A DNA stretch of 64,000 nucleotides from Dehalococcoidia bacterium (GTDB taxonomy: Bacteria > Chloroflexota > Dehalococcoidia > UBA2979). The translations under genes were made by a program, and so were the position numbers. Shown piece after piece: positions 28,899 to 46,807 of the stretch. A model generated the notes under the pieces. The model did no database searches and was not told the DNA's origin. It saw only the letters and a program-made list of their open reading frames with translations. The stretch lies in NCBI GenBank assembly GCA_029941115.1, contig JAPYRK010000010.1, forward strand, positions 2,527 to 66,526. The letters are read 5' to 3'. The stretch's first letter is position 1; the number at the start of each line of letters is the position of its first letter.

Positions 28899-30317
28899 GT
28901 GTCTCAACAACCTAGAATTATAGACATGGATACAAATCGTCAAGGCAGCAATAATCCCTTAAGCGGGCTCCCCTCAACCTCGAAAGTACTAGAGTCCGAA
29001 AGAGCTCAGGCCCTGATTGAGAAACATGGACAGAAGGCAATTAGCGACCTTACACGTGAAACCCTGCAAGTAATTAGAGACAATATACGAAGTATGGAGG
29101 CCAGCCAAATCAGCCTAGACATCATCATAACGACACTTGAGTCAAAAGCAAAAAAACTTGGTGATACTCTTCGACCTGTAATCAATGCCACGGGAGTAAT
29201 CTTACACACGAACCTCGGACGTGCTCCACTTTCTGAAGACACCCGAGCCGCGATGGCAGATGTAACAGAGGGTTACTCGAATTTGGAATACGACGTAACC
29301 ACTGGAAGCAGAGGTTCACGATTCAGTCATCTTCAATCGATTATCCAGCGCCTGACAGGCGCAGAAGACTCGATAGTTCTCAACAATAATGCGGGTGCCG
29401 TTCTCGCAACCCTCGCCGCGATTTGCAAGGACGGTGAGGTTATCGTGTCCAGAGGTCAACTGGTGGAAATTGGAGGCGGTTTCAGGGTGCCGGACGTGAT
29501 GAGTCAGTCTGGCGCGCAATTGAAAGAAGTAGGTACTACGAACCGGACTCGCGCGGCTGACTACGAGAGCGGCATATCAGATAAAACCAAGGCTCTGATG
29601 CGGGTACATCCATCAAATTTTCTTATTTCTGGCTTCACGGAAGAAACGTCATTACGAGAAATTGTGAAGGTCGGTCATGAACATAATCTGCCGGTGATCG
29701 ATGATATTGGTTCAGGAGCGCTACTTGACTTGAGGCCATATGGATTGAAACCTGAACCTTTGCTTAGCGAATGCATTGACGACGGCGCAGATCTAGTGCT
29801 CGCGTCAGGTGACAAGTTAATCGGTGGACCACAGGCGGGTTTAATAATAGGGAAGTCAACACTTATTGATACCATCAGAAAGCATCCGCTCACGCGAGTT
29901 CTCCGACCGGACAAAGCGACGATAGCGGGAATCGCCGCAACTCTAAAACATTATGCCTTAGACGAAGCTACTGAAAAAATACCTATCTGGCAAATGATCT
30001 CTATGAATGAGTCAATTCTCCAGCAGAGAGCACAACGATTTGCTGAAGCTTGGGGATCTAGTGCACAAGTCGTTACCGGTAAGTCGACCGTGGGGGGTGG
30101 CAGCCTACCTGGACAGACTCTCACAACCAGGTTATGTGCAATTAGTCTGTCCCAACAAAAATTAGAGCTAGTTAGCAAAGAATTACGTGCCTCTGAACTC
30201 TCGATTATCTCTAAAATTCAGGATGGTGTGCTACAACTCGATCCGCGTACGGTGCTAATTGACCAAGACATACAAGTCGTGAACACGCTTGAAAAGATTT
30301 CTAAAGGTATGAAATAG
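28899..30317 (+). CDS. selA: L-seryl-tRNA(Sec) selenium transferase
   Basis: VINATGVILHTNLGRAPL, SRGQLVEIGGGFR, EVGTTNRT, SGDKLIGGPQAG, GGGSLP. Confidence 0.95.
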   Translation: MSQQPRIIDMDTNRQGSNNPLSGLPSTSKVLESERAQALIEKHGQKAISDLTRETLQVIRDNIRSMEASQISLDIIITTLESKAKKLGDTLRPVINATGVILHTNLGRAPLSEDTRAAMADVTEGYSNLEYDVTTGSRGSRFSHLQSIIQRLTGAEDSIVLNNNAGAVLATLAAICKDGEVIVSRGQLVEIGGGFRVPDVMSQSGAQLKEVGTTNRTRAADYESGISDKTKALMRVHPSNFLISGFTEETSLREIVKVGHEHNLPVIDDIGSGALLDLRPYGLKPEPLLSECIDDGADLVLASGDKLIGGPQAGLIIGKSTLIDTIRKHPLTRVLRPDKATIAGIAATLKHYALDEATEKIPIWQMISMNESILQQRAQRFAEAWGSSAQVVTGKSTVGGGSLPGQTLTTRLCAISLSQQKLELVSKELRASELSIISKIQDGVLQLDPRTVLIDQDIQVVNTLEKISKGMK

Positions 30318-36489: not shown

Positions 36490-37719
36490 CTACGTCCGTT
36501 TTTCTGCCGAAATGATAAGTTCATCCGCGCCCCGCAGGAGCAGCGTACCACCTCTGGTAAGTCCGCCCTTTACCGGAGCGAACGAGCTGAATTCTTCGAA
36601 AAGTCGCTTGAATGCCGTGCCGGCCTCAACTCTCGCGAGTGGGGCCCCAAGACAAAAATGAATGCCGTGTCCAAACGACAAATGGCGCTTCTCTCTCCGA
36701 TCAAAAAGGAATGTGTCGGGATCGGAATATGCTGCCGGATCACGGTTCGCTGCTCCCAACATACACATCAATACATCACCTTTGGTTATCAGGGTTCCCA
36801 GCACCTCCGTATTCCGAGTAGCCACCCGTACGAGACCTTGAACGGGACTGTCGTAACGAAGAGTTTCCTCGATTACGGACGGTATAATATCGGGATTCGC
36901 CGCGATTTGATCAAGCACGTTGTGGTGATTTAGCAGTGCCAGCATGCCGTTCCCAATTAGATTGGTGGTAGTTTCATTACCTGCCACGAGCAACAATATA
37001 GTGAACGATATTGCCTCATCTCGGGTGAGCTTGTCGCCGGTCTCATCCTGATCATTCACGATGGCAGAAATTAAATCGTCTTCTGGGCTACTTAATCTTC
37101 TATCAATAATCTCGCCCAGATACGCCACCATTTCCTCGGTTACGACACGTCTGCGCTCTAATTCAGCGGGATCAGGTACCAGTTTCGTAGCGCTGGCTAC
37201 TACCGTCGACCACTCTTTAAATCGTATGCGCTCACTTGGAGGTATTCCAAGCATCTCCGCGATAACTATGACCGGAAGAGGTTGAGCCAGGCCCGCCATA
37301 AGGTCAAATTTGGACTCAGTTCGTAACGATTCCACAAGTGAATCCGTTACATCAGTAATATGTTCGTCGAGTGCAGCGATACGCTTCGGTGTGAACGTTT
37401 TGTTCACAATAGCGCGCAGTCGGGTATGGTCCGGTGGGTCACTGGTCAGCACATTGCGCACATATCCCAGAGGATTTGCCTCTGCTTCGCGCGCCACCTC
37501 ATTTGCGATCGCACCGGACGCGTACCGTGGATTAGATGAAAAAATTTCAGGGTCTTTGAGAATCGCGCTACAAGCCTCGTGAGACGTAATCACCCAGGCA
37601 TTAAGCGCGTCTGAGTGATATATCGGAGCATAATCTCTTGCACGCGCGTATTGTACATATGGATTGGATTTAAATGATGGAATAAAGGGATTGAAAACTG
37701 CGGTCTGGCCCTGCGTCAT
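36490..37719 (-). CDS. cytochrome P450 (canonical I-helix)
   Basis: DPPDHTRLR, AGNETT, EETLR, FGHGIHFCLG. Confidence 0.97.
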   Translation of the reverse strand: MTQGQTAVFNPFIPSFKSNPYVQYARARDYAPIYHSDALNAWVITSHEACSAILKDPEIFSSNPRYASGAIANEVAREAEANPLGYVRNVLTSDPPDHTRLRAIVNKTFTPKRIAALDEHITDVTDSLVESLRTESKFDLMAGLAQPLPVIVIAEMLGIPPSERIRFKEWSTVVASATKLVPDPAELERRRVVTEEMVAYLGEIIDRRLSSPEDDLISAIVNDQDETGDKLTRDEAISFTILLLVAGNETTTNLIGNGMLALLNHHNVLDQIAANPDIIPSVIEETLRYDSPVQGLVRVATRNTEVLGTLITKGDVLMCMLGAANRDPAAYSDPDTFLFDRREKRHLSFGHGIHFCLGAPLARVEAGTAFKRLFEEFSSFAPVKGGLTRGGTLLLRGADELIISAEKRT

Positions 37720-37743: not shown

Positions 37744-39006
37744 CTATAACGTCACTGATATCTCCAGAGCCTTGGGTCCGCGAGCAAACCAGTCCTCTGT
37801 TCGAGGAAGACTACCCGGCTCCATTTGATCAGATAGTCGAAACGAAGACGTTTTTTCTAACAATGACCTAAATACTTCTTGTAGAGCAATTCGCGCCAAT
37901 GGGGCGCCCACGCAGTAATGAGAGCCTCTGCCAAAAGCCAGCGATGGTGGAGCGTCACTGCCTGAATTGGATCGATAACGCTCGACGTCAAATATGTCCG
38001 GATTTTCAAATACATCTGGATCTCGGTTGGTTCCACCAACCAACACCATGACGACGTCATTCTCCTTCATTTGGACTCCTGAAAATAACAGATCCGAGGT
38101 TACCCACCGCACCAGAACTTGTTGCGGTGGGTCAAATCTCAATATTTCATCAACAGCCGAATCCAGAAGCTCGCTATTCTCTCTCAAAGCTGACTGTGCG
38201 GTATCGCTGATGGCAAAGGCCAAAATTCCGTTTGTGATGGCTTCTGCTGTAGTAGCGCTTCCGGCCTGAGCCAAATCCACCACAAGAGCTAGTAGTTCTT
38301 CTGTTGATGGCAGGTCCTCCTCAGTGTTATCACTCGATATTTCTTCTGCACGTGCAATCGACGACAGAACAGAATCACTCGCCACGCGCTCGTCATGCGA
38401 GACGGATTCCAAGAATTCGGTAAGTCTGACCTTGGCTTCTCGCGCCGCGCGCCGCTTTGCTACGGTCACATCATTGAAATTAGTCTGCATTAAGGCAAAC
38501 GTATCGCTCATCACCTGATCCCGATCATCTACATGAAGTCCGAGCTGGAGACTTAATATAGTCTCTGGCACCTTCACTGCGAGAGACTGCACTACCTCAA
38601 CCACCCCACCAGAATGGGCACCTAACAGGTCATCGATCAGCATAGAAACTTCGATCCGTATATCGTTCCGTAGCTTCTCCAAAATACTGGGGGCAAATCC
38701 GCGCGCGACGATTCTTCGAAGACGGGTGTGCGAGAAGGAATCCAACTGAGCCAGTCGTTCAACATTGCCCAAGGCAGAGTTCTGCCGAACATATGCCAGA
38801 CTCTCAGATACCTTGGAACTCGCACGGCTTGGATTAGAGGAAAATGTTTCATAGTCCTGCAATACTTCTAACCCGTACTGATATGAAGTGATGATCCAGG
38901 CGTTCACAGTTTCTGAATAATGAACTGGTTCATCACTCCGAAGTCTCGCCAAGGATGAATACGGATCCGCCATATAGGACGGTCGAAATGGATTGAAGTA
39001 CGCCAT
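37744..39006 (-). CDS. cytochrome P450 (atypical I-helix)
   Basis: HTRLR, AGSATT, DEILR, FGRGSHYCVG. Confidence 0.95.
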   Translation of the reverse strand: MAYFNPFRPSYMADPYSSLARLRSDEPVHYSETVNAWIITSYQYGLEVLQDYETFSSNPSRASSKVSESLAYVRQNSALGNVERLAQLDSFSHTRLRRIVARGFAPSILEKLRNDIRIEVSMLIDDLLGAHSGGVVEVVQSLAVKVPETILSLQLGLHVDDRDQVMSDTFALMQTNFNDVTVAKRRAAREAKVRLTEFLESVSHDERVASDSVLSSIARAEEISSDNTEEDLPSTEELLALVVDLAQAGSATTAEAITNGILAFAISDTAQSALRENSELLDSAVDEILRFDPPQQVLVRWVTSDLLFSGVQMKENDVVMVLVGGTNRDPDVFENPDIFDVERYRSNSGSDAPPSLAFGRGSHYCVGAPLARIALQEVFRSLLEKTSSFRLSDQMEPGSLPRTEDWFARGPKALEISVTL

Positions 39007-39106: not shown

Positions 39107-40513
39107 TTGTCCTCAAAAACTTATTCTGCAGAGACTACTGAGCTTGAGTCACCCTTTAGGGGTATAGACCTGTCGAAGCCCACTTATGGCAAGTTCCGAA
39201 GATTAATCCCTCTCGCCTATACCTTGCTCACAGTCTGGTTGAAGTGGAGGACGCTCCGAATTAAGAGACGCCTGTTTGGGGTCGAGCGGATGGAGGCAGC
39301 GACTCACAAATTCCATTCAGATGCGGCGATTTCTGTAGTTCGACTGGCCGTCAAGCAACAGGGCATGATAGTTAAAATGTGTCAATTTTTGGGTGCACGT
39401 GCTGATGTTCTTATGGAGGAATACGTCCGGACACTTTCGCTCGTGCATGATTCTATACCTCCAAGACCTTGGCTAGAAGTGAAAAATCGAATAGAAGAGG
39501 AACTGGGAGCGCCAGTCGAGAACCTATTTAAGTCCATCTCCGAAGAGCCAGTAGCCGCAGCCTCACTGGCACAGGTACATCGGGGGCGCACACATGATGG
39601 GCATGATGTGGCAGTGAAGATTCAGCATGTAGGCATAGACAAAATTGTCGAGTGGGATCTTGAGGCTGTTGACTTGCTCTCTAATATATGGAGTCGACTT
39701 GAAACTATCATCGATTTCCGCCCGATGGTTGCCGAAATGCGTAGAAATGCACCAGAAGAAATTGACTTCGTCCATGAAGGACGTGCGGCCGAAGAAATAG
39801 CTAATCTTCTCTCAGACAGAAATGATACAACCGTCCCGAAAATTTTCTGGGAGCTTAGCTCATTACGAGTTCTCACAATGGACTACATCGACGGCATAAA
39901 AATTACTGATACTAAAGCTTTGCGAGAGGCAGGTGTAAACCCGCCCGATGTCGCTGATGTGCTCATTGATTTGTATAACAACATGATTCTCAAATACGGC
40001 ATGTTTCATGCAGATCCGCACCCTGGAAACCTCTTCGTGTTACCGCCTAAAAGTGAAGACGAGTCTCTACGGATCGGGCTGGTTGATTTTGGACTTACTA
40101 AGTCAATAGAGACTGATTTTCGAGAGCAGTTAATGGTCCTAACCAGCGCCATCATTGAGCAGCAATCAGATGTAATTTCAACCACTATGACAGACATGGG
40201 ATTCAGGACTCGTGAAGACGACCCAGAGACGTATACCGCGCTGGGAGAAGCATTCCTCGGAGATGTGCTTCGTTCAGGAAAAGCCTATGCTGATCAGGAA
40301 ATGGTTGCAGAGGTAAATGAAAATCTTGGAAAGCTATTGCGAGCTAATCCTATTCTAGACCTCCCAGGTGACGTGATCCTGATTGCACGAGTCATGGGAT
40401 TACTTTCCGGTCTCGGTCGGACTCTGGAATCAGAAACTGACCTACTCATCTCGGTACTACCATACCTTGATCCTGATAAGGACCAGGCTAGTGATGATGA
40501 TCTCTTCGCCTAA
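39107..40513 (+). CDS. ABC1/UbiB/AarF family atypical kinase
   Basis: VKMCQ (KxxQ), AAASLAQVH, VAVK, FHADPHPGN, VDFG. Confidence 0.93.
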   Translation: MSSKTYSAETTELESPFRGIDLSKPTYGKFRRLIPLAYTLLTVWLKWRTLRIKRRLFGVERMEAATHKFHSDAAISVVRLAVKQQGMIVKMCQFLGARADVLMEEYVRTLSLVHDSIPPRPWLEVKNRIEEELGAPVENLFKSISEEPVAAASLAQVHRGRTHDGHDVAVKIQHVGIDKIVEWDLEAVDLLSNIWSRLETIIDFRPMVAEMRRNAPEEIDFVHEGRAAEEIANLLSDRNDTTVPKIFWELSSLRVLTMDYIDGIKITDTKALREAGVNPPDVADVLIDLYNNMILKYGMFHADPHPGNLFVLPPKSEDESLRIGLVDFGLTKSIETDFREQLMVLTSAIIEQQSDVISTTMTDMGFRTREDDPETYTALGEAFLGDVLRSGKAYADQEMVAEVNENLGKLLRANPILDLPGDVILIARVMGLLSGLGRTLESETDLLISVLPYLDPDKDQASDDDLFA

Positions 40514-40582
40514 CCAATAGAATATCGAGTTAAGTTTGCTCGAATCAATTCACTTACTCTATCGGGTTCTTATCAATTAAGC

Positions 40583-40637
40583 TTGCATGTATTCATTTTA
40601 TACGTTATTGTTCATTTAAATGAATGATAATTCATTT
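40583..40637 (+). promoter_or_regulatory. sigma70 promoter with a TetR-type palindromic operator at the start site
   Basis: TTGCAT(40583)-N17-TATTGT(40606); TTCATTTAAATGAA (40611-40624) and AAATGAAT-GATA-ATTCATTT (40618-40637); extra ATTCATTT half-site at 40591. Confidence 0.7.
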
Positions 40638-40663
40638 TGTCGGGCAATAGATAGGAGTCTAAA

Positions 40664-40798
40664 GTGATAACCCCGAAAGAGTACATTAATGGCGTGTTGA
40701 GCAAAGGTCGTAAGACCGGACCTCTCTTTGAAGAAGCCAAGAAGGATTACCGAAGATGGCTTCGCGAAGAAAACAGCAACTGGCGCTGTACTTTATAA
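40664..40798 (+). CDS. microprotein A (44 aa), unannotated
   Basis: AGGAG SD plus GTG; MITPKEYINGVLSKGRKTGPLFEEAKKDYRRWLREENSNWRCTL; homologous to the next ORF. Confidence 0.75.
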   Translation: MITPKEYINGVLSKGRKTGPLFEEAKKDYRRWLREENSNWRCTL

Positions 40799-40831
40799 GT
40801 ACTAACAGCCATAAATGTCAGGAGTAATAAT

Positions 40832-40954
40832 ATGAAACTTACGAATTACGTCAGCTACATTACGCGAAAAAATCGCGGTGTCGCGCCAAACTATGATGAG
40901 GCTAAAAAGGATTTTTTAGCGATGATACGTAGACGCAATATAAGTCACCTTTAA
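40832..40954 (+). CDS. microprotein B (40 aa), paralog of A
   Basis: AGGAG SD plus ATG; MKLTNYVSYITRKNRGVAPNYDEAKKDFLAMIRRRNISHL; shares Y...KxR...PxxxEAKKD[YF]. Confidence 0.78.
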   Translation: MKLTNYVSYITRKNRGVAPNYDEAKKDFLAMIRRRNISHL

Positions 40955-40955
40955 C

Positions 40956-40986
40956 GCTAAAATGCTTAGAAATCTAAGTATTTAGC
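40956..40986 (+). other. RNA hairpin directly after microprotein B
   Basis: GCTAAAATGCTTAG-AAAT-CTAAGTATTTAGC, about 13 bp with one G-U and one bulge. Confidence 0.55.
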
Positions 40987-40998
40987 TAATGATGATCG

Positions 40999-41056
40999 TT
41001 TCCTTACTTTGGGCTAACCTACTCGCGTAAGTATCCCTCAGTCCAAAGTAAGGAAA
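40999..41056 (+). promoter_or_regulatory. 17-bp RNA stem covering the putative tetR ribosome-binding site
   Basis: TTTCCTTACTTTGGGCT (40999-41015) pairs with AGTCCAAAGTAAGGAAA (41040-41056), one G-U; AAGGA lies in the 3' arm. Confidence 0.65.
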
Positions 41057-41066
41057 TTCAATAAAT

Positions 41067-41729
41067 ATGCCACGCAGGCCCGAGCGATACCTAGAAGAAC
41101 GAAAACAAGACATCATTCGGGCAGCGAAGCAGATGTTCGTGCAGCAGGGTTATGCATCCACAACAATTAGCCAGATAGCAACTGAAGCCGAGATGGCAAC
41201 CGGTACGCTTTATCGGTACTTTAAGAGCAAAGACGAACTAATTTGGGCCGTTTCACACGAACATATCGAAGAAGAACTTCAAGCCTTTACGACTTTAGAA
41301 AAAGAATCAACATCTGCCGGAGATCAGCTTCTGGAGATTTTATTGAAACCGTATCAAAATACTGATGTCGACCAGAGCCGACAAGATGCGATTATCAGCC
41401 TGGAATCGACCTTGGCTGCTTTGAGAAGCGATGGACTTAAAGAAAAAGTTGCGACAGATATTTCCATGTCGATCGACGCGTTAACCGAACTAATCCAAAA
41501 AGCCCAAGCACAAGGTGAAGTAAACCCTCAATTCAGCCCGTCCGCACTTTCAGCATTGCTCCATGGCACTGCAAGCGGTTTGGCAAGTCTCAGGCCTCTA
41601 CTGTCTGAAAATTCGACCTATATCGTGGCCGCACAAGATCTTCTAATTAAACTGGTGGAATCACTCTATAGTCCTTCTCTTGCGAAACGTTCACAGGATA
41701 AAAAAAGCATGCCATCAACACCTGAATGA
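41067..41729 (+). CDS. TetR/AcrR family transcriptional regulator
   Basis: IIRAAKQMFVQQGYASTTISQIATEAEMATGTLYRYFKSKDEL HTH. Confidence 0.95.
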   Translation: MPRRPERYLEERKQDIIRAAKQMFVQQGYASTTISQIATEAEMATGTLYRYFKSKDELIWAVSHEHIEEELQAFTTLEKESTSAGDQLLEILLKPYQNTDVDQSRQDAIISLESTLAALRSDGLKEKVATDISMSIDALTELIQKAQAQGEVNPQFSPSALSALLHGTASGLASLRPLLSENSTYIVAAQDLLIKLVESLYSPSLAKRSQDKKSMPSTPE

Positions 41730-41789: not shown

Positions 41790-44700
41790 ATGACCACAAG
41801 CCACACCTCGCATCGATCGGTAATTTCTGGAGAAGGCGCTCCAACGCATTCCTCCGTCCAAAATGCGCTGAATCTACTGGAAGGGCCAGACCATCTTCTT
41901 CAACAGATTGAGGTGGCTCTAGTAAGCGCACTTGCCGGGGGCGCAGAAGATGTTGATACATCCAGAGCTCGAAGACTTCTCTACGCCACAGACGCATCGA
42001 TCTATGAAATGGAGCCGGTTGCGGTTACTTTCCCTCGAGACACCAGCGATGTTCAAGCAATCGTGCAAGTCGCGAATACCTTCGGTGTTCCCATTCTTCC
42101 AAGAGGAGCCGGTACGAGTTTGGCGGGGCAAGGTGTCAACCATGCAATAGTGATTGACTTCACTCGCTACATGAATCAGGTATTGGAGATAGATCCGTCT
42201 TCGGTGACCGCACGTGTCCAGCCAGGACTAGTAGTTGACGCACTCAATAAACAAGCCAAAAGGCACCAACTCATGTACCCCGTGGACCCGTCCACCAGAA
42301 ATAGAGCAACTATAGGTGGTGGTATTGGCAACAATTCATGTGGTGCGCACTCGCTCAGACACGGAAAAACGAGTGACCAGTTAATTTCAGTCACCGTCGT
42401 ACTCAATGACGGAAGTATTATCCGCACCAAAAATGTCTCGGGTTCAGAATTAGAGGAAAAATTAGACGGCGACGCACGTGAATCAGAGTTGTACCGATCT
42501 ATTCGCGAGATTGCGCAATCGCGACAAGCAGAAATAGAGGCATACTTCCCAAAGATACCTAGGCGTGTATCTGGTTATAACCTTGACACTGTACTTACAT
42601 ACGACGATGGTCGTGGTGAAAGTATGGACATCGGTCAAATGATTGTGGGCAGTGAGGGAACTCTAGGAATTGTCACGGAGGCGACTCTCAAGCTTGCCCC
42701 ACTTGCTGTTAAAACGGGGATAATTGCGCTTCATTTCGAATCTATAGAAGATGCGTGCCGAGCAGCTCCTATTGCGGTCACACACGACCCCGCAGCGGTC
42801 GAACTAGTTGATAGAACAATCATCGAACGCTGTCGCGAAAGCTTTAGCTATAAATCTCTAATTGAGTTCGTAATAGGTACTCCAGGAGGCCTGCTATTGG
42901 TCGAAGTAGATGGAGAAACTGAGCAAGAAGTCATCGAAAAACTAAATGCACTAAGTAAAGACTTCAGGGGTCGTGGCCTCACTCAAGATATGGTTGTTAC
43001 CACTAACTCAGGAGAACAAGCTCGAATGTGGCGAATGAGAGAAGCCGGCCTCGGACTGTTAATGTCCGTGCGGGGAGATGCAAAACCAGTAGCCTTCGTT
43101 GAAGATGGGGCCGTTGAACCTGAATTTTTAGGAGATTACGTCGCTCGATTCGAGGAAATAGTACAACGTTATGGACTACCCACCGCGTACTATGGCCACG
43201 CTGGTGCAGGATGCCTACACATCAGACCCATGATCAATCTCAAAGAATTAGATGGCCCCGAAAACGCTGAAATTTTGGCTCAAGAAATCGCCGATTTAAT
43301 TCTGGAATTTGGAGGCTCACTCAGCGGTGAGCACGGTGACGGGATAGTACGAGGTGCTTTTACGGAGCGTATGTTTGGACCCGCCTTGGTGGATAGTTTC
43401 CGTGATGTCAAATTAGCATTTGATCCGGACTCATTAATGAACCCAGGGAAAATTATTGATACCCCAAGGTTCAATGACAATCTGCGACTTTCACCAAAAA
43501 CCGCCAGCCTCACCCCACCCACGTTTTTAAATTGGGAGGAATGGGGTGGCATTGCACGGGCCGCCGAACAATGTAATGGGCAAGGAGCATGCCTAAAGGA
43601 TGTTGGCACGATGTGCCCGTCCTTCATGGTCACGAAAGATGAAGAACACTCCACACGAGGTCGAGCCAATTTACTCCGCCAAGTGCTGAATCAGTCGCTG
43701 CCACCGGAAGAGCTCACGGGGGATCGAATCCACGATGCACTTGACCTCTGCGTGGAATGCAAGGCATGTAAGAACGAATGTCCTTCGGCCGTTGATATGG
43801 CTCTCCTGAAGTCAGAGGTACTCGCCCTACGCCACGCAGAACAAGGTGTGCCACTCAGGGATAGAATTTTTGCTGGTATCGCGAGAGGCGCCAAACTAAA
43901 TCAGTTGCTAGGTATCAGATCGTTGACAAACTGCGTAAGCCGGATCGGTTTTGTGAAGGTACTGCTTGACCAATTTCTCGGAATTCATAAGTCGAGACCG
44001 CTTCCTGAATTCGCGCCAATCTCGTTCGTAGAATGGTTTCAAAAAAACCATAGTGTCGGACGCGCAACCACAAATGGAACGATCGTACTCTTTGTCGATA
44101 CGTTTACAAATTATTTTCAGCCTCAGATTGGTAAAGCAGCGGTAATGGTGTTAGAAGCCTTAGGTTACGCCGTTCAGATAACACAACAAAATGAATGCTG
44201 CGGAAGACCTATGATCTCAAAAGGATTACTGGGTGACGCTCGGAATGCCGCTGCTAAGAACTTAAAAAGCTTGGAAAGTTTTATCGAAGCCGGCATTCCA
44301 ATTGTAGGCTTAGAGCCATCCTGCTTGCTGACCTTTCGGGACGAATATCCGCTGTTGCTGCACAACTCGCCTCCCCTTGCAAAACTTGCGGATGCTGCAG
44401 CAAAGCAGTCGTTTCTTATCGAAGAATTTATCACTCGCTGTGCCATTGAAAACGAAAGCTCGGTTCGAAGTATTTTTCAAGGTGGAACGAGCGTTTCCAT
44501 TCATATCCACTGCCATGAGAAAGCATTGGTTGGTACGGAACAGGCCCTTAAAGTCTTGGATCTCGCCAACATCCCAGCAAATTTGATTGATTCGGCGTGT
44601 TGTGGCATGGCCGGCTCATTTGGTTTTGAAACAGAACACTATGAGGTCTCCCGGGCAATGGCAGAACGAACATTGATCCCCGCAATTCGTGAAATGCCTG

Positions 44701-44816
44701 AGTCCGAGCGACTACTAATCACCGGCACTTCCTGCCGACAGCAGCTAGATCATTTCAGCTCAAAAACACCAATACATCTAGTCGAAGCATTAGCTGAATC
44801 GTTAATAAATAAATAG
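41790..44816 (+). CDS. FAD-linked and Fe-S-binding oxidoreductase (GlcD/GlcF fusion, YdiJ-like 2-hydroxyacid dehydrogenase)
   Basis: YATDASIY, RGAGTSLAGQ, GSEGTLG, SGEHGDG, CVECKACKNECP, CCG domains. Confidence 0.93.
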   Translation: MTTSHTSHRSVISGEGAPTHSSVQNALNLLEGPDHLLQQIEVALVSALAGGAEDVDTSRARRLLYATDASIYEMEPVAVTFPRDTSDVQAIVQVANTFGVPILPRGAGTSLAGQGVNHAIVIDFTRYMNQVLEIDPSSVTARVQPGLVVDALNKQAKRHQLMYPVDPSTRNRATIGGGIGNNSCGAHSLRHGKTSDQLISVTVVLNDGSIIRTKNVSGSELEEKLDGDARESELYRSIREIAQSRQAEIEAYFPKIPRRVSGYNLDTVLTYDDGRGESMDIGQMIVGSEGTLGIVTEATLKLAPLAVKTGIIALHFESIEDACRAAPIAVTHDPAAVELVDRTIIERCRESFSYKSLIEFVIGTPGGLLLVEVDGETEQEVIEKLNALSKDFRGRGLTQDMVVTTNSGEQARMWRMREAGLGLLMSVRGDAKPVAFVEDGAVEPEFLGDYVARFEEIVQRYGLPTAYYGHAGAGCLHIRPMINLKELDGPENAEILAQEIADLILEFGGSLSGEHGDGIVRGAFTERMFGPALVDSFRDVKLAFDPDSLMNPGKIIDTPRFNDNLRLSPKTASLTPPTFLNWEEWGGIARAAEQCNGQGACLKDVGTMCPSFMVTKDEEHSTRGRANLLRQVLNQSLPPEELTGDRIHDALDLCVECKACKNECPSAVDMALLKSEVLALRHAEQGVPLRDRIFAGIARGAKLNQLLGIRSLTNCVSRIGFVKVLLDQFLGIHKSRPLPEFAPISFVEWFQKNHSVGRATTNGTIVLFVDTFTNYFQPQIGKAAVMVLEALGYAVQITQQNECCGRPMISKGLLGDARNAAAKNLKSLESFIEAGIPIVGLEPSCLLTFRDEYPLLLHNSPPLAKLADAAAKQSFLIEEFITRCAIENESSVRSIFQGGTSVSIHIHCHEKALVGTEQALKVLDLANIPANLIDSACCGMAGSFGFETEHYEVSRAMAERTLIPAIREMPESERLLITGTSCRQQLDHFSSKTPIHLVEALAESLINK

Positions 44817-44915: not shown

Positions 44916-45611
44916 ATGTCGAAACATCATTACAGGAAACAGAAAATCGCAGTCCTCGGACTCGGAAGATTTGGGTCTACGCTCGCTCGTGACCTCCAAG
45001 CAATGGGACACGAAGTCATTGGCATCGATCACAATAGCAACACTATTAAATCGCTCTCGGCAGAGTTATTTCATATTGCCGAAGCCGAGGCATCTGACGC
45101 TGACGCTCTAAAATTTTTAGGAATTCCTCACTGTGACGCTGCTGTAGTAGCATTTTCCGCGCAAGATCTCGAAACGAGTATTCTCGCTACGCTCACGCTG
45201 AAACAAGAGATGCAAATACCCCGAGTGATAGCAAAGGCGGCAAACGCGAGACATGGTGAAATCCTTGAACGGGTCGGTGCTGATGAAATCAAGTATCCGG
45301 AAAGAGAATCAGGCCGCCACCTCGCTCTCGCCTGGTCAGATCAGGGGCATGAAGCTGATAACCTTGAGATAAGCAATCAGTATCTGATTACAAGAATCAA
45401 AGCCCCCTCAAAGTTACATACTGAAACATTCGCGAGTATTAGAAACCAATACCCTAATCTTGACTTTATTATGTGGATGGACGGTGAAGGCGCATTAACT
45501 TTGACGCCATCTGATAATGACATCCTTCGAAAGAATCATCTACTCGTTATCGGAGGAAATCCCAACGAAATTGAGGACTTCCTAGATGCCGTGCGTGAAG
45601 AATCCACCTAG
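44916..45611 (+). CDS. TrkA/KtrA family RCK potassium-uptake regulatory subunit
   Basis: VLGLGRFG, VIAKA...HGEILERVGAD..YPERESG. Confidence 0.9.
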   Translation: MSKHHYRKQKIAVLGLGRFGSTLARDLQAMGHEVIGIDHNSNTIKSLSAELFHIAEAEASDADALKFLGIPHCDAAVVAFSAQDLETSILATLTLKQEMQIPRVIAKAANARHGEILERVGADEIKYPERESGRHLALAWSDQGHEADNLEISNQYLITRIKAPSKLHTETFASIRNQYPNLDFIMWMDGEGALTLTPSDNDILRKNHLLVIGGNPNEIEDFLDAVREEST

Positions 45612-46807
45612 ACTTTCAGATAGAGCGATTTGAAGCCGCGAAGCGTCATAGTGCCACCCCATTCAATCTTTTGGATCAGTGGTGGAGTGTCGGTTACTGA
45701 TAGCATCGCCAGAATAGCCTGTTCTGCTAAACCCATCGCCGCTCCCGCACCAATACAGTGGTGCTCGCCAGAGCCAAACTGAAGTTGACCACGGAATGAA
45801 CGATCGAGCAAAAATTCGTCTGGTCGTTCAAATCGTTCAGGGTCTCTGCCAGCCGCCGTAACGACCGCCAATACTCCCTCTCCTGGCTTAATAGTGCGAT
45901 TACCCAAGCTCGTAGTCTCGGTCGCAAAGCGAGGAATAAACTGGGTCGGCCCCTGCCAACGCAAGGCTTCAATAACTGCCAAGGCCGTCAATTCAGGCTG
46001 TACCTTGAGTCGCTCGAATAGATCGGGAGTTATAGCTAGAATCCAGAGCATTAAGCCTATCAAAAACGCGGTTGCATTATTCCCAGCAATTGATAAATCA
46101 AATAGAAGTTTTGCTGCATCTTCCTCTGATATGCTGCCTACTTCTATGGCATCTCGTAATAACGCAATAGCCCCATTTGGAGCAGAATTAGTTGAAACCG
46201 CATGCTTGCAAACATCGCGCAATGCGGCCTGCGCTCGAACGCCCTGTGAGCGTACAATCGGACCGGCGCCGCTATGTGCACGCCAAGCTTGAATTGTTGT
46301 ACCCAATGACTCGTAGTTAGATCGTTCGCCGGGAGATGTACCAAGTAACTCATACACAGTCTCGACGACCGCCTGATTTGCAATTCCAGACATTGCCTCG
46401 AACGATTCGCCTTGAGCTGCGCTCACGGCACCGTGTGTCCATTTCCAAGCAATTTCCTTCACTATCTGTCCGTAATGATTCACATTATAAGCGGGTGACG
46501 CCAACGCTCGTTGATGCTTATGCTCCTCCAGGCCAGTTCGAATAAACGGAACATCACCCTGCCGATTACCGTCGAGTGTTCCGGTCAATTGTCTTGCTAA
46601 AATACTCCGGTTGTGCCGAATCGCAGCGTTTGCATCTGAGGAGAAAACAGAAGGTTGCTTTAATACCGTGTCGCAGTCTTCGTATTTAGTCAATACCCAG
46701 GCCTCAAACTTTGAATCCCAATGGACTGGATCTTCTTTACGTAGGCGTGCTAAAGCCGGATAAGGGTTTTTCAGATACGATGGGCGGTCAGGTTTCCAGT
46801 CGACCAT
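45608..46807 (-). CDS. cytochrome P450 (atypical I-helix)
   Basis: NPYP.LARLR..DPVHW, AGNNAT, IEALR, FGSGEHHCIG. Confidence 0.93.
   Translation of the reverse strand: MVDWKPDRPSYLKNPYPALARLRKEDPVHWDSKFEAWVLTKYEDCDTVLKQPSVFSSDANAAIRHNRSILARQLTGTLDGNRQGDVPFIRTGLEEHKHQRALASPAYNVNHYGQIVKEIAWKWTHGAVSAAQGESFEAMSGIANQAVVETVYELLGTSPGERSNYESLGTTIQAWRAHSGAGPIVRSQGVRAQAALRDVCKHAVSTNSAPNGAIALLRDAIEVGSISEEDAAKLLFDLSIAGNNATAFLIGLMLWILAITPDLFERLKVQPELTALAVIEALRWQGPTQFIPRFATETTSLGNRTIKPGEGVLAVVTAAGRDPERFERPDEFLLDRSFRGQLQFGSGEHHCIGAGAAMGLAEQAILAMLSVTDTPPLIQKIEWGGTMTLRGFKSLYLKV

What the first reader, a model, noticed from the sequence alone, without database searches (positions are those of the whole stretch)
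40583..41729. Unannotated pair of paralogous microproteins under a TetR-type operator
Seen: the 550-bp gap between the ABC1 kinase and tetR contains a sigma70 promoter, a palindromic operator over the start site, and two ORFs (44 aa, 40664-40798; 40 aa, 40832-40954), each with an AGGAG SD. They align without gaps over 23 residues: YINGVLSKGRKTGPLFEEAKKDY vs YVSYITRKNRGVAPNYDEAKKDF (consensus Y-h-x2-h-x2-K-x-R-x3-P-x-[FY]-[DE]-EAKKD-[YF]). Codons differ while residues are kept, which suggests selection on the peptide. Both are below the ORF-track cutoff and I do not recognise the family. Inference: a ligand-inducible small-protein system. The basic, amphipathic helix after the Pro could bind membranes, lipid bodies, nucleic acid or a partner protein; the neighbours (ABC1 kinase, P450s) point to lipid metabolism.
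Basis: partly seen in the sequence, partly recalled or inferred. Interest (0 to 1): 0.85.

Follow-up and report, generated by a model that had tools for sequence, protein, structure and literature searches.

The report
Two TetR-controlled microprotein genes
Two real genes for roughly 40-residue proteins of an unnamed family sit at the head of a repressor-controlled operon in a marine Chloroflexota genome; the regulation is ordinary, but what the tiny proteins do is unknown.

Summary
ORF A (40664-40798, 44 aa) and ORF B (40832-40954, 40 aa) exist, each behind an AGGAG, and are paralogs (BLASTP E=1e-7).

They are genes. dN/dS is 0.03-0.18 within the genus. They belong to a family of about 40-aa proteins with no Pfam or NCBIfam match, found in 49 of 99 genomes of the host's taxonomic family, a SAR202-type Dehalococcoidia group.

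AlphaFold2 predicts a soluble, basic helical hairpin for both, at moderate confidence.

The promoter and operator are supported by comparison. TGAA-N6-TTCA sites and a -35/-10 pair lie in the same register in 12 loci. The sites also precede TetR orthologs that have no small ORF. So the operator serves tetR autoregulation, and the small ORF is an optional first cistron.

The ancestral cluster is ABC1 kinase, promoter/operator, (sORF), tetR, mmpL. In this genus an FAD oxidase replaces mmpL.

The molecular role is unresolved. I favour a protein-binding adaptor co-induced with the repressor. The regulation is a known kind; the protein family is new. Interest is moderate.

The parts
40583..40588 (+). 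-35 hexamer TTGCAT
   Evidence: A TTGnnn hexamer lies in the same column, 17 nt before the -10, in 11 of the 12 TetR-linked loci aligned on the operator; one locus reads GGACAT there. The consensus scan did not call it.
40606..40611 (+). -10 hexamer TATTGT, inside operator site O1'
   Evidence: It is in register with CATCAT, CATTAT or CATGAT inside O1 of the other genera.
40601..40614 (.). Operator site O1' (TACGTTATTGTTCA). The left arm is degenerate and the right arm TTCA is kept.
   Evidence: It lies exactly 20 bp upstream of O2. That is where the 7 loci from other genera carry an intact TGAA-N6-TTCA site.
40611..40624 (.). Perfect palindrome TTCATTTAAATGAA, which bridges O1' and O2
   Evidence: The arms TTCAT/ATGAA are kept and the centre varies among the 5 genomes of the genus.
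40621..40634 (.). Operator site O2 (TGAATGATAATTCA), placed at about the transcription start
   Evidence: A TGAA-N6-TTCA site lies 43-46 nt before ORF A in 5 of 5 loci of the genus, with conserved arms and a variable centre. The same motif precedes the TetR clade in 24 of 29 loci, and is absent from 15 of 15 control paralog loci.
40653..40657 (+). Shine-Dalgarno AGGAG of ORF A
   Evidence: It lies 6 nt before the GTG. GGAG is conserved in 5 of 5 genomes of the genus.
40664..40798 (+). Microprotein gene A (44 aa, GTG start)
   Evidence: dN/dS is 0.03-0.18. Variable columns by codon position 1/2/3 are 6/7/26 of 44. The AlphaFold2 model has helix 4-13, a loop, and helix 22-38, at pLDDT 70.7.
40820..40824 (+). 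Shine-Dalgarno AGGAG of ORF B
   Evidence: It lies 7 nt before the ATG.
40832..40954 (+). Microprotein gene B (40 aa, ATG start), a paralog of A
   Evidence: BLASTP against A gives E=1e-7. dN/dS is 0.07-0.13 in the close pairs. The AlphaFold2 model has helix 3-13, a loop, and helix 21-38, at pLDDT 70.9.
40999..41056 (+). Stable RNA hairpin between B and tetR. Its 3' arm contains the tetR Shine-Dalgarno-like AAGGAAA.
   Evidence: Two 17-nt arms, 94% complementary. The fold z-score is -6.66. The hairpin is kept in 3 genomes of the genus through 4 one-sided, wobble-compatible changes and no compensatory change. It is not alignable in the other two genomes.
41067..41729 (+). TetR-family repressor gene
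   Evidence: PF00440 TetR_N, E=4.1e-17. Orthologs in 37 of 99 genomes of the host's taxonomic family are preceded by the same operator motif.
41790..44816 (+). FAD-linked oxidase fused to Fe-S and CCG domains, 60 nt after tetR. It is a possible last gene of the operon and sits where mmpL lies in other genera.
   Evidence: Pfam matches. It follows tetR in all 6 loci of the genus that reach that far, and MMPL follows tetR in 20 of the other loci.
39107..40513 (+). ABC1/UbiB-type kinase, the conserved upstream neighbour and a separate transcription unit
   Evidence: PF03109, E=4e-73. It lies upstream of the operator in most related loci.

Best explanation
A and B are two real genes. Each encodes a soluble, basic protein of about 40 residues that folds as a helix-loop-helix hairpin. 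Both belong to an unnamed small-protein family concentrated in one SAR202-type Dehalococcoidia family.

At this locus they are the first two cistrons of an operon A-B-tetR, which may continue into the FAD oxidase. Transcription starts from a promoter with -35 at 40583-88 and -10 at 40606-11. That promoter is overlapped by the operator of the neighbouring TetR, made of TGAA-N6-TTCA sites at 40601-14 and 40621-34.

Inferred from what is generally known of TetR regulators: the repressor sits on the -10 and the start site, and an unknown ligand, probably hydrophobic, releases it. A, B and new repressor are then made together.

Shown by comparison: the operator and promoter belong to tetR autoregulation. 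They are ancestrally followed by tetR-mmpL, and the small ORF is an optional leading cistron. It has been kept directly upstream of this TetR clade in 7 genera.

Inferred and weak: the microproteins work by binding a protein partner made or active under the same signal. The candidates are the TetR itself (feedback in the manner of ArmR, the Pseudomonas anti-repressor peptide) or the MMPL/ABC1 lipid-handling machinery.
For: Coding:
- dN/dS is 0.03-0.18 for A and 0.07-0.13 for B in the close pairs. Variation is concentrated at third codon positions.
- In an RNA-library contig from a related strain, all 6 listed differences inside A fall on third codon positions (positions worked out by me).
- The start codon and GGAG are conserved.

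Family:
- 74 hits at E<=1e-3 in 1.84 billion proteins, about 60 of them stand-alone proteins of 38-59 aa.
- 49 of 99 genomes of the host's taxonomic family, in 18 of 21 genera.
- 23 of 301 genomes sampled across the class and 5 of 301 across the phylum, counting the window's own genome.
- In 31 family-matching open frames of 25 related loci the match runs to within a few residues of the frame's end, and an M or V that would give a protein of about 38-50 aa precedes it.

Fold and chemistry:
- Helical hairpin at pLDDT 70.7 and 70.9.
- Median pI 10.2, net charge +4, no hydrophobic segment.

Regulation:
- Two TGAA-N6-TTCA sites 20 bp apart in 7 of 7 TetR-linked loci from other genera.
- One intact site plus a degenerate one in 5 of 5 loci of the genus.
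- None in 15 of 15 paralog loci without a TetR.
- The -35, a 17-nt spacer and the -10 (inside O1) are in register in 12 loci, with one -35 degenerate.
- Sites precede the TetR clade in 24 of 29 loci, including 12 with no small ORF. Of the 5 loci without a site, 2 are cut at the contig end. Only 1 of 43 sites lies elsewhere.

Linkage:
- A small ORF lies directly upstream, on the same strand, at 19 of 38 places holding this TetR clade, in 7 genera (coordinates).
- Stop-to-start distance is 2-13 nt in genera g13 and g18.

Cluster:
- ABC1 kinase, (sORF), tetR, mmpL.

RNA:
- One metatranscriptome contig spans 40678-41447, covering A, B and the 5' part of tetR.
- Another spans 40741-40901.
Against: - No experiment shows that the TetR binds these sites. 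The pairing rests on co-occurrence.
- The promoter is weak against consensus, and the scan did not call it.
- Genome-wide, the operator motif is no commoner than chance: 11 found, 9.9 expected.
- RNA-library contigs cannot prove a single transcript, its strand or its level, and DNA carry-over is possible.
- Twelve orthologous TetR operons work without any small ORF, so the microprotein is dispensable for the regulator.
- Most family copies lie in unrelated contexts, next to a MiaB/RimO-type radical SAM gene, a methyltransferase with YibE/F, or a transposase. About 23 of the 107 places listed are TetR-linked (my comparison of the places). So TetR or MMPL binding cannot be the function of the whole family.
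- The structure models have only moderate confidence.
- Nothing here identifies a partner.
Confidence: 0.6

Rival explanations
1. The peptides are small basic proteins that bind nucleic acid or the ribosome. They would be general stress-type factors, and this copy merely happens to be wired to a TetR promoter.
For: The family's median pI is 10.2 and its net charge +4, and it is hydrophilic. Genomes hold several paralogs each, up to 5. One conserved context lies directly after a MiaB/RimO-type methylthiotransferase gene and is convergent with a gene whose product, by my recollection, looks like YlxP/DUF503.
Against: The invariant residues are acidic or structural: E24, D28, A25, P20 and an aromatic pair. 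They fit hairpin packing, not a basic binding face. No match to any ribosomal or nucleoid protein family was found. The recurrent placement directly upstream of one TetR clade in 7 genera is left unexplained.
Confidence: 0.15
2. The small ORFs matter mainly as leader cistrons. Their translation delivers ribosomes to tetR by translational coupling, or opens the hairpin that covers the tetR ribosome-binding site. The peptide itself would be secondary.
For: In genera g13 and g18 the tetR start follows the small-ORF stop by 2-13 nt, and I saw no separate Shine-Dalgarno in that gap. In the window a stable hairpin (z=-6.66) holds the AAGGAAA that precedes tetR. The small ORF is optional among orthologous operons.
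Against: Strong purifying selection acts on the peptide sequence. The same peptide family occurs where no gene follows on the same strand. Invariant residues persist across 58 diverse members. In the window 112 nt separate B from tetR, so direct coupling is not possible.
Confidence: 0.1
3. The family are precursors of ribosomally made, post-translationally modified peptides, with a conserved leader of about 30 residues and a variable C-terminal core.
For: The N-terminal 30-34 residues are conserved and the last 5-15 vary. Genomes hold several copies. A radical SAM gene is next to some copies.
Against: Those radical SAM genes carry UPF0004 and TRAM domains, the architecture I recall for MiaB/RimO-type methylthiotransferases and not for peptide maturases. 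No protease, cyclase or dedicated exporter recurs next to the small ORFs in the loci examined. Only 4 of 58 members contain Cys. The tails are conserved within subgroups. The predicted second helix runs to residue 38, into the supposed core.
Confidence: 0.05
4. The peptides are membrane-associated accessory subunits of the MMPL exporter, like AcrZ with AcrB.
For: They are co-operonic with mmpL in genera g13 and g18. Another paralog lineage lies just upstream of a YibE/F membrane-protein gene.
Against: No hydrophobic segment exists in any of the 58 members: the maximum 15-residue hydropathy is 0.93. In this genus the operon has no mmpL, yet A and B remain under strong selection. The genome's only clear MMPL gene lies on another contig, with no operator site in the 10 kb around it.
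Confidence: 0.07

Closest known systems
NalC / PA3720-armR / MexR circuit of Pseudomonas aeruginosa (passages of PMC6018408 read; the operon name PA3720-armR is recalled)
   Same: A gene for a small protein (ArmR, 53 aa) is kept silent by a TetR-family repressor (NalC) that responds to hydrophobic xenobiotics. Once made, the small protein acts by binding another protein in an efflux-pump circuit.
   Different: I could not test sequence relatedness, because no ArmR sequence was fetched. ArmR targets a MarR-type regulator, and nothing here shows that A or B binds any regulator. By my recollection nalC is transcribed divergently from its target operon, whereas here the small ORFs lie in the same operon as the repressor, directly upstream of it.
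TetR-regulated MmpS/MmpL efflux operons of mycobacteria, for example MAB_4384 with MmpS5/MmpL5 (PMC5895659; only the search listing and the start of the abstract were seen)
   Same: A TetR-family repressor with palindromic operators controls an MMPL-family exporter. The ancestral form of this locus is tetR-mmpL behind such an operator.
   Different: The accessory gene here encodes a 40-aa soluble hairpin, not an MmpS protein, which by my recollection is about 140 aa with a membrane anchor. In the window's genus mmpL has been replaced by an FAD oxidase.
AcrZ, a 49-aa partner of the AcrB pump (recalled; no paper read)
   Same: It is a microprotein co-regulated with an RND-superfamily exporter.
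   Different: AcrZ is a single transmembrane helix. This family has no hydrophobic segment.
Sda, a 46-aa helical hairpin that inhibits the kinase KinA (recalled; no paper read)
   Same: Similar size and a predicted helical-hairpin fold. A and B also have a kinase-like neighbour, the ABC1 kinase.
   Different: No sequence or specific structural match was found: the best fold match of any kind has Z=4.7 and is generic. ABC1/UbiB proteins are not histidine kinases.
YbdD/YjiX small proteins (Pfam PF04328)
   Same: Small proteins that carry a P-x-T-Y-E-E-like motif.
   Different: Profile comparison gives a probability of 1.5%. PF04328 was found in 0 of 201 Chloroflexota genomes searched, and no family member matches it.

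Membership tests
TetR-family repressor (for the gene at 41067-41729) | N-terminal TetR_N helix-turn-helix domain | tested here: met
   PF00440, E=4.1e-17, 62.1 bits against a cut-off of 24, residues 16-61.
TetR-family repressor (for the gene at 41067-41729) | Palindromic operator overlapping its own promoter (autoregulation) | tested here: met
   TGAA-N6-TTCA sites lie upstream of this TetR clade in 24 of 29 loci, and the -10 lies inside O1. Binding itself is not shown.
TetR-family repressor (for the gene at 41067-41729) | Release from DNA by a small-molecule ligand | not testable with these tools
   Only weak matches below cut-off to TetR C-terminal domains, for example TetR_C_13 at E=2.2e-4 and 22 bits against a cut-off of 27. 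The ligand is unknown.
Any curated protein family (Pfam-A, NCBIfam, PADLOC) for A and B | Significant profile match | tested here: not met
   No family at E<=1 for A or B in Pfam. Among 58 members the best Pfam E-value is 0.07, each hit in a single member. NCBIfam best is 0.032 in 1 of 12 members. PADLOC best is 0.013 in 1 of 16. The PDB sequence profile search gives a best E of 0.41.
YbdD/YjiX (PF04328) | Profile or profile-profile similarity | tested here: not met
   hhalign probability is 1.5% over 12 columns. No PF04328 hit among 58 members. PF04328 was found in 0 of 201 genomes of the phylum.
Tetratricopeptide (TPR) motif | 34-residue helix-turn-helix with the TPR consensus, normally in tandem arrays | tested here: inconclusive
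   Helix 2 carries A-x3-[YF]-x2-A, which I recall as the pattern of the second TPR helix. TPR_2 and TPR_10 each match 1 of 58 members, at E=0.15 and 0.11. An RPAP3 TPR region matches at E=0.74. The protein has a single unit, not an array.
ArmR-like anti-repressor peptides | The small-protein gene is repressed by a TetR-family regulator | tested here: met
   Met by comparative inference only: the operator and promoter lie upstream of A.
ArmR-like anti-repressor peptides | The peptide binds and inactivates a transcription regulator | not testable with these tools
See Tried and rejected for the complex prediction.
ArmR-like anti-repressor peptides | Sequence homology to ArmR | not tested
RiPP precursor peptides | A dedicated maturase, protease or exporter encoded beside the precursor | tested here: not met
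   The neighbours are ABC1 kinase, TetR, MMPL, a MiaB/RimO-type radical SAM enzyme (UPF0004 and TRAM domains), a methyltransferase, YibE/F and a transposase. None is a recognised peptide maturase by my knowledge of those families.
AcrZ-like or type I toxin-like membrane microproteins | A hydrophobic transmembrane helix | tested here: not met
   The maximum 15-residue Kyte-Doolittle mean is 0.93 across 58 members, and the median GRAVY is -0.69.

The most novel reading that the evidence does not exclude
The microprotein is a dedicated protein-level partner of this TetR clade. It would be made from the same message, translationally coupled in sister genera, and would bind the repressor to tune how fast repression is re-established, as an anti-repressor or co-repressor. 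That would be a new class of TetR-partner microproteins. The paralogs in other contexts would have been recruited to other partners.
Probability: 0.12. Interest if true: 0.7.

Novelty: new variant of a known kind. Interest (0 to 1): 0.45.

Why it matters
SAR202-type Chloroflexota are abundant in the deep ocean (my general knowledge), and all the genomes seen here are metagenome assemblies. Their small proteins are essentially unstudied.

This work defines a small-protein family of about 40 residues with a clear sequence signature: M-x-h-x2-Y-Y-x2-[ILV]-x4-6-R-x2-x-P-T-x2-E-A-x-[RK]-D-[YFL]. It has no Pfam or NCBIfam match, and where a source names its members they are only 'hypothetical protein'.

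This work also gives a concrete, testable regulatory model for one lineage of the family:
- a TetR operator motif, TGAA-N6-TTCA;
- a promoter whose -10 lies inside the first operator site;
- an ancestral operon, (sORF)-tetR-mmpL, placed next to an ABC1/UbiB kinase and P450 genes.

If the peptides prove to modulate the repressor or the lipid-export machinery, that would add a microprotein layer to a very common bacterial regulatory module. If not, the finding still adds a well-supported gene family to annotation pipelines that skip short ORFs.

Tried and rejected
- **Chance ORFs:** rejected on dN/dS, the codon-position pattern and the family-wide profile hits.
- **Known RNA element:** no Rfam match at E<=1 in 40400-41200.
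- **Known protein family:** none in Pfam, NCBIfam, PADLOC or the PDB sequences.
- **Fold matches:** Foldseek against the PDB gave 1 row at E=9.9. VIA-align against 48,161 chains gave a best Z of 4.7, all generic helical hairpins. The ESM Atlas gave no usable hit.
- **YbdD/PF04328 resemblance**, a lead I recalled: rejected.
- **TetR regulon elsewhere in the genome:** the motif count equals chance. The one identical 14-mer, on contig C5, lies inside a coding frame whose product looks dUTPase-like to me. No site lies in the 10 kb around the genome's MMPL gene.
- **Conserved 5'-UTR structure across genera:** none seen.
- **Complex prediction** of the TetR dimer with A, using my own alignments A4 and A5: no verdict, score 0.00 against a mark of 0.32. 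This counts neither for nor against binding.
- **My first gene picks in GC-rich loci:** seven of the long ORFs sent had no Pfam match. One search printed these and one more, and their Arg/Ala/Pro-rich composition looks like wrong-frame translation. I re-picked genes by GC at the three codon positions. Contexts are quoted only from ORFs with a Pfam match or from that re-pick.
- **Depth in RNA libraries:** parts of the stretch without cover in runs X15-X18, and the small word shares of X16-X20, are not evidence of anything.
- **Literature:** five full-text searches found no paper on this family. For PMC12856327, on marine small proteins, I saw only the search listing with the start of the abstract and one reference-list passage that matched my search terms. 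PMC10730256: two passages read, neither relevant.
Full report
**The observation.** The gap between the ABC1-kinase ORF (39107-40513) and the TetR gene (41067-41729) is 553 bp. It holds two small ORFs on the + strand.
- A is 40664-40798 (GTG start, 44 aa), with AGGAG 6 nt upstream.
- B is 40832-40954 (ATG start, 40 aa), with AGGAG 7 nt upstream.
- The two peptides align without gaps over 31 residues: 11 identical, 18 similar, E=1e-7.
- The DNA under the shared core is only 78% identical.
- The palindromes TTCATTTAAATGAA (40611-40624) and TGAATGATAATTCA (40621-40634) are present.

The proposed sigma-70 promoter matches consensus weakly, and the scan tool did not call it.

**They are genes.**
- The window's genome (1.9 Mb, 56 contigs, 45.8% G+C) holds only these two copies.
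- Four of the seven other genomes of the genus hold both, in the same order. The three that lack them are 72-76% complete.
- Across these five genomes, variable alignment columns at codon positions 1/2/3 number 6/7/26 of 44 for A and 18/11/31 of 40 for B.
- Nei-Gojobori dN/dS is 0.03-0.18 for A and 0.07-0.13 for B in the pairs where dS is not saturated.
- The start codon and GGAG are conserved.

**They belong to a family.**
- A profile of 12 sequences found 74 proteins at E<=1e-3 among 1.84 billion cluster representatives. About 60 are stand-alone proteins of 38-59 aa. The long hits match in 4-10 short stretches each, which I take for repeat or low-complexity matches, and I set them aside without fetching them.
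- The signature is M-x-h-x2-Y-Y-x2-[ILV]-x4-6-R-x2-x-P-T-x2-E-A-x-[RK]-D-[YFL] followed by a variable tail. E24 and D28 are invariant and P20 nearly so in 58 members.
- No member matches a Pfam, NCBIfam or PADLOC family, or a PDB sequence, at a meaningful level.
- Where a source names public copies, they are 'hypothetical protein'.
- Hosts named by record titles are uncultured Chloroflexi, Dehalococcoidia and SAR202 metagenome-assembled genomes.
- The family occurs in 49 of 99 genomes of the host's taxonomic family (18 of 21 genera), often in 2-5 copies.
- It occurs in 23 of 301 genomes sampled across the class and 5 of 301 across the phylum, counting the window's genome.
- In 31 family-matching open frames of 25 related loci the match runs to within a few residues of the frame's end, preceded by an M or V that would give about 38-50 residues. 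This holds even inside long GC-rich open frames.

**Fold and chemistry.** AlphaFold2 with the family alignment predicts a helix-loop-helix hairpin for both.
- A: helix 4-13 and helix 22-38, pLDDT 70.7.
- B: helix 3-13 and helix 21-38, pLDDT 70.9.
- The conserved P-T-x-x-E looks like a helix N-cap (my reading). A25 and Y/F29 with the Y-Y pair look like the packing core.
- The family is basic (median pI 10.2, net charge +4) and hydrophilic, with no transmembrane-like segment.
- Fold searches gave only generic hairpins.

**The regulatory region.** This is the clearest result.
- tblastn with the window's neighbours showed the order ABC1 kinase, small ORF, TetR in two further genera, g13 and g18.
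- In all 7 of those loci, two TGAA-N6-TTCA sites lie 20 bp apart, 66-101 nt upstream of the small ORF. There are none elsewhere in the 2-3 kb fetched.
- In the 5 loci of the window's genus, one intact site lies 43-46 nt before A, with conserved arms and a variable centre.
- In 15 loci holding paralogs without a TetR there is no site at all.
- Aligned on these sites, a TTGnnn -35 hexamer lies exactly 17 nt before a -10-like hexamer that sits inside the first site. The -10 reads CATCAT, CATTAT or CATGAT in the GC-rich genera and TATTGT here. In 11 of the 12 loci the -35 starts TTG; one reads GGACAT.
- In the window this gives -35 at 40583-88 and -10 at 40606-11, inside a degenerate O1' (40601-14). 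O2 (40621-34) lies at about the transcription start.
- A search with the TetR alignment found the clade at 38 places in 37 of 99 genomes.
- In the 29 loci fetched, the sites precede the TetR (or the small ORF in front of it) in 24. Two of the five without a site are cut at the contig end. Only 1 of 43 sites lies elsewhere.
- Twelve of these loci have the sites directly before tetR with no small ORF.

The operator and promoter therefore belong to tetR autoregulation, and the small ORF is an optional first cistron. That TetR is the binding protein is inferred from this co-occurrence. Genome-wide the motif is no commoner than chance, 11 against 9.9 expected, and the only other identical 14-mer lies inside a coding region.

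**The wider cluster.**
- Downstream of tetR, the other genera carry an MMPL-family exporter (PF03176, E down to 4.8e-83).
- Upstream lies the ABC1 kinase and, in the one 6-kb locus examined, a P450 like the window's.
- In the window's genus an FAD-linked oxidase with Fe-S/CCG domains takes the place of mmpL.
- The genome's only clear MMPL gene lies on another contig, with no operator site in the 10 kb around it.
- Comparing the coordinates, a small ORF lies directly upstream on the same strand at 19 of the 38 TetR-clade places, in 7 genera.
- In g13 and g18 its stop is 2-13 nt from the tetR start, which suggests translational coupling.
- By the same comparison, only about 23 of the 107 family places listed are TetR-linked.
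- Other lineages sit after a MiaB/RimO-type radical SAM gene, or between a methyltransferase and a YibE/F gene, or beside a transposase.

**Expression.** Public RNA libraries hold parts of the stretch.
- One metatranscriptome contig, from a strain 92% identical, spans 40678-41447, that is A, B, the spacer and 380 nt of tetR.
- Another spans 40741-40901.
- A third begins its matching part exactly at 40583.
- All six differences listed inside A fall on third codon positions.

Contigs cannot show a single transcript, its strand or its level, and DNA carry-over is possible. This is weak support only.

**The spacer before tetR.** A hairpin with 17-nt arms (40999-41015 and 41040-41056) folds with z=-6.66 and encloses the AAGGAAA before the tetR start.
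- Three genomes of the genus keep it through four one-sided, G-U-compatible changes, which fits an RNA structure on the + strand.
- No compensatory change was seen, and the other two genomes differ here.
- It may set the ratio of microprotein to repressor. This was not followed further.

**What the peptides do.** This remains inferred.
- The facts are co-induction with a repressor, ancestrally with an MMPL exporter; coupling to tetR in sister genera; dispensability in 12 orthologous operons; a soluble basic hairpin fold; and paralogs elsewhere.
- I favour a small protein-binding adaptor. The TetR itself, or the MMPL/ABC1 machinery, are candidate partners for this lineage.
- The nearest known logic is ArmR of Pseudomonas: a 53-aa peptide whose gene is repressed by the TetR-family NalC and which binds the pump regulator MexR (passages of PMC6018408).
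- A complex prediction of the TetR dimer with A returned no verdict and counts for nothing.
- Rivals are a nucleic-acid or ribosome binder, a mere coupling leader, a modified-peptide precursor, and a membrane pump subunit. Each is weighed in its own section.

**Verdict.**
- The regulation is a standard TetR autoregulated operon.
- The microprotein family is real, fairly widespread in SAR202-type Chloroflexota, unnamed, and of unknown function.
- Five literature searches found nothing on it. Supplementary tables of a marine small-protein survey (PMC12856327) could not be opened.
- Interest is moderate, 0.45.

Noticed in passing
window 40999-41056: A very stable hairpin (17-nt arms, z=-6.66) lies between ORF B and tetR. 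Its 3' arm holds the AAGGAAA in front of the tetR start. It is kept in 3 of 5 genomes of the genus through wobble-compatible changes only. It could throttle tetR translation relative to A and B.
   Followed up: partly
window 40956-40986: A second, smaller stem-loop lies directly after the stop of ORF B in the minimum-energy fold. No T-run follows it, so it does not look like an intrinsic terminator.
   Followed up: no
window 41790-44816 versus L068-L092: In this genus an FAD-linked oxidase fused to Fe-S/CCG domains sits where 20 related loci carry an MMPL exporter behind the same TetR. The cargo gene has been replaced under a conserved regulator.
   Followed up: partly
window 36490-37719, 37744-39006, 45608-46807: There are three cytochrome P450 genes within 10 kb around the locus. 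One of them is syntenic with a P450 next to the ABC1 kinase in another genus (L057).
   Followed up: partly
window 28899-30317: A SelA (selenocysteine synthase) gene is present (PF03841, E=1.3e-132). The organism probably makes selenoproteins, so some in-frame TGA codons in this genome may be read as selenocysteine.
   Followed up: no
L037, L038, L039, L041 (genus g13), just downstream of O2: A third ATGAAC half-site follows O2 and forms longer palindromes, for example 9-bp arms in L037 and L039. The operator array in that genus is more elaborate than the two sites.
   Followed up: no
L090 and L093 (genus g10): More distant TetR paralogs also have a family member directly upstream, with a longer tail of about 50 aa, but no TGAA-N6-TTCA site. 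Presumably their operator differs.
   Followed up: no
G069-G072 and G026 (genus g20), e.g. L044, L049, L051, L052: Tandem pairs of family members also occur outside the TetR context, after a MiaB/RimO-type radical SAM gene. Pairing of paralogs is therefore recurrent in this family.
   Followed up: partly
G000 contig C5, about 3007: A 14-mer identical to O2 lies inside a coding frame whose C-terminus looks dUTPase-like to me. I take it for chance.
   Followed up: partly
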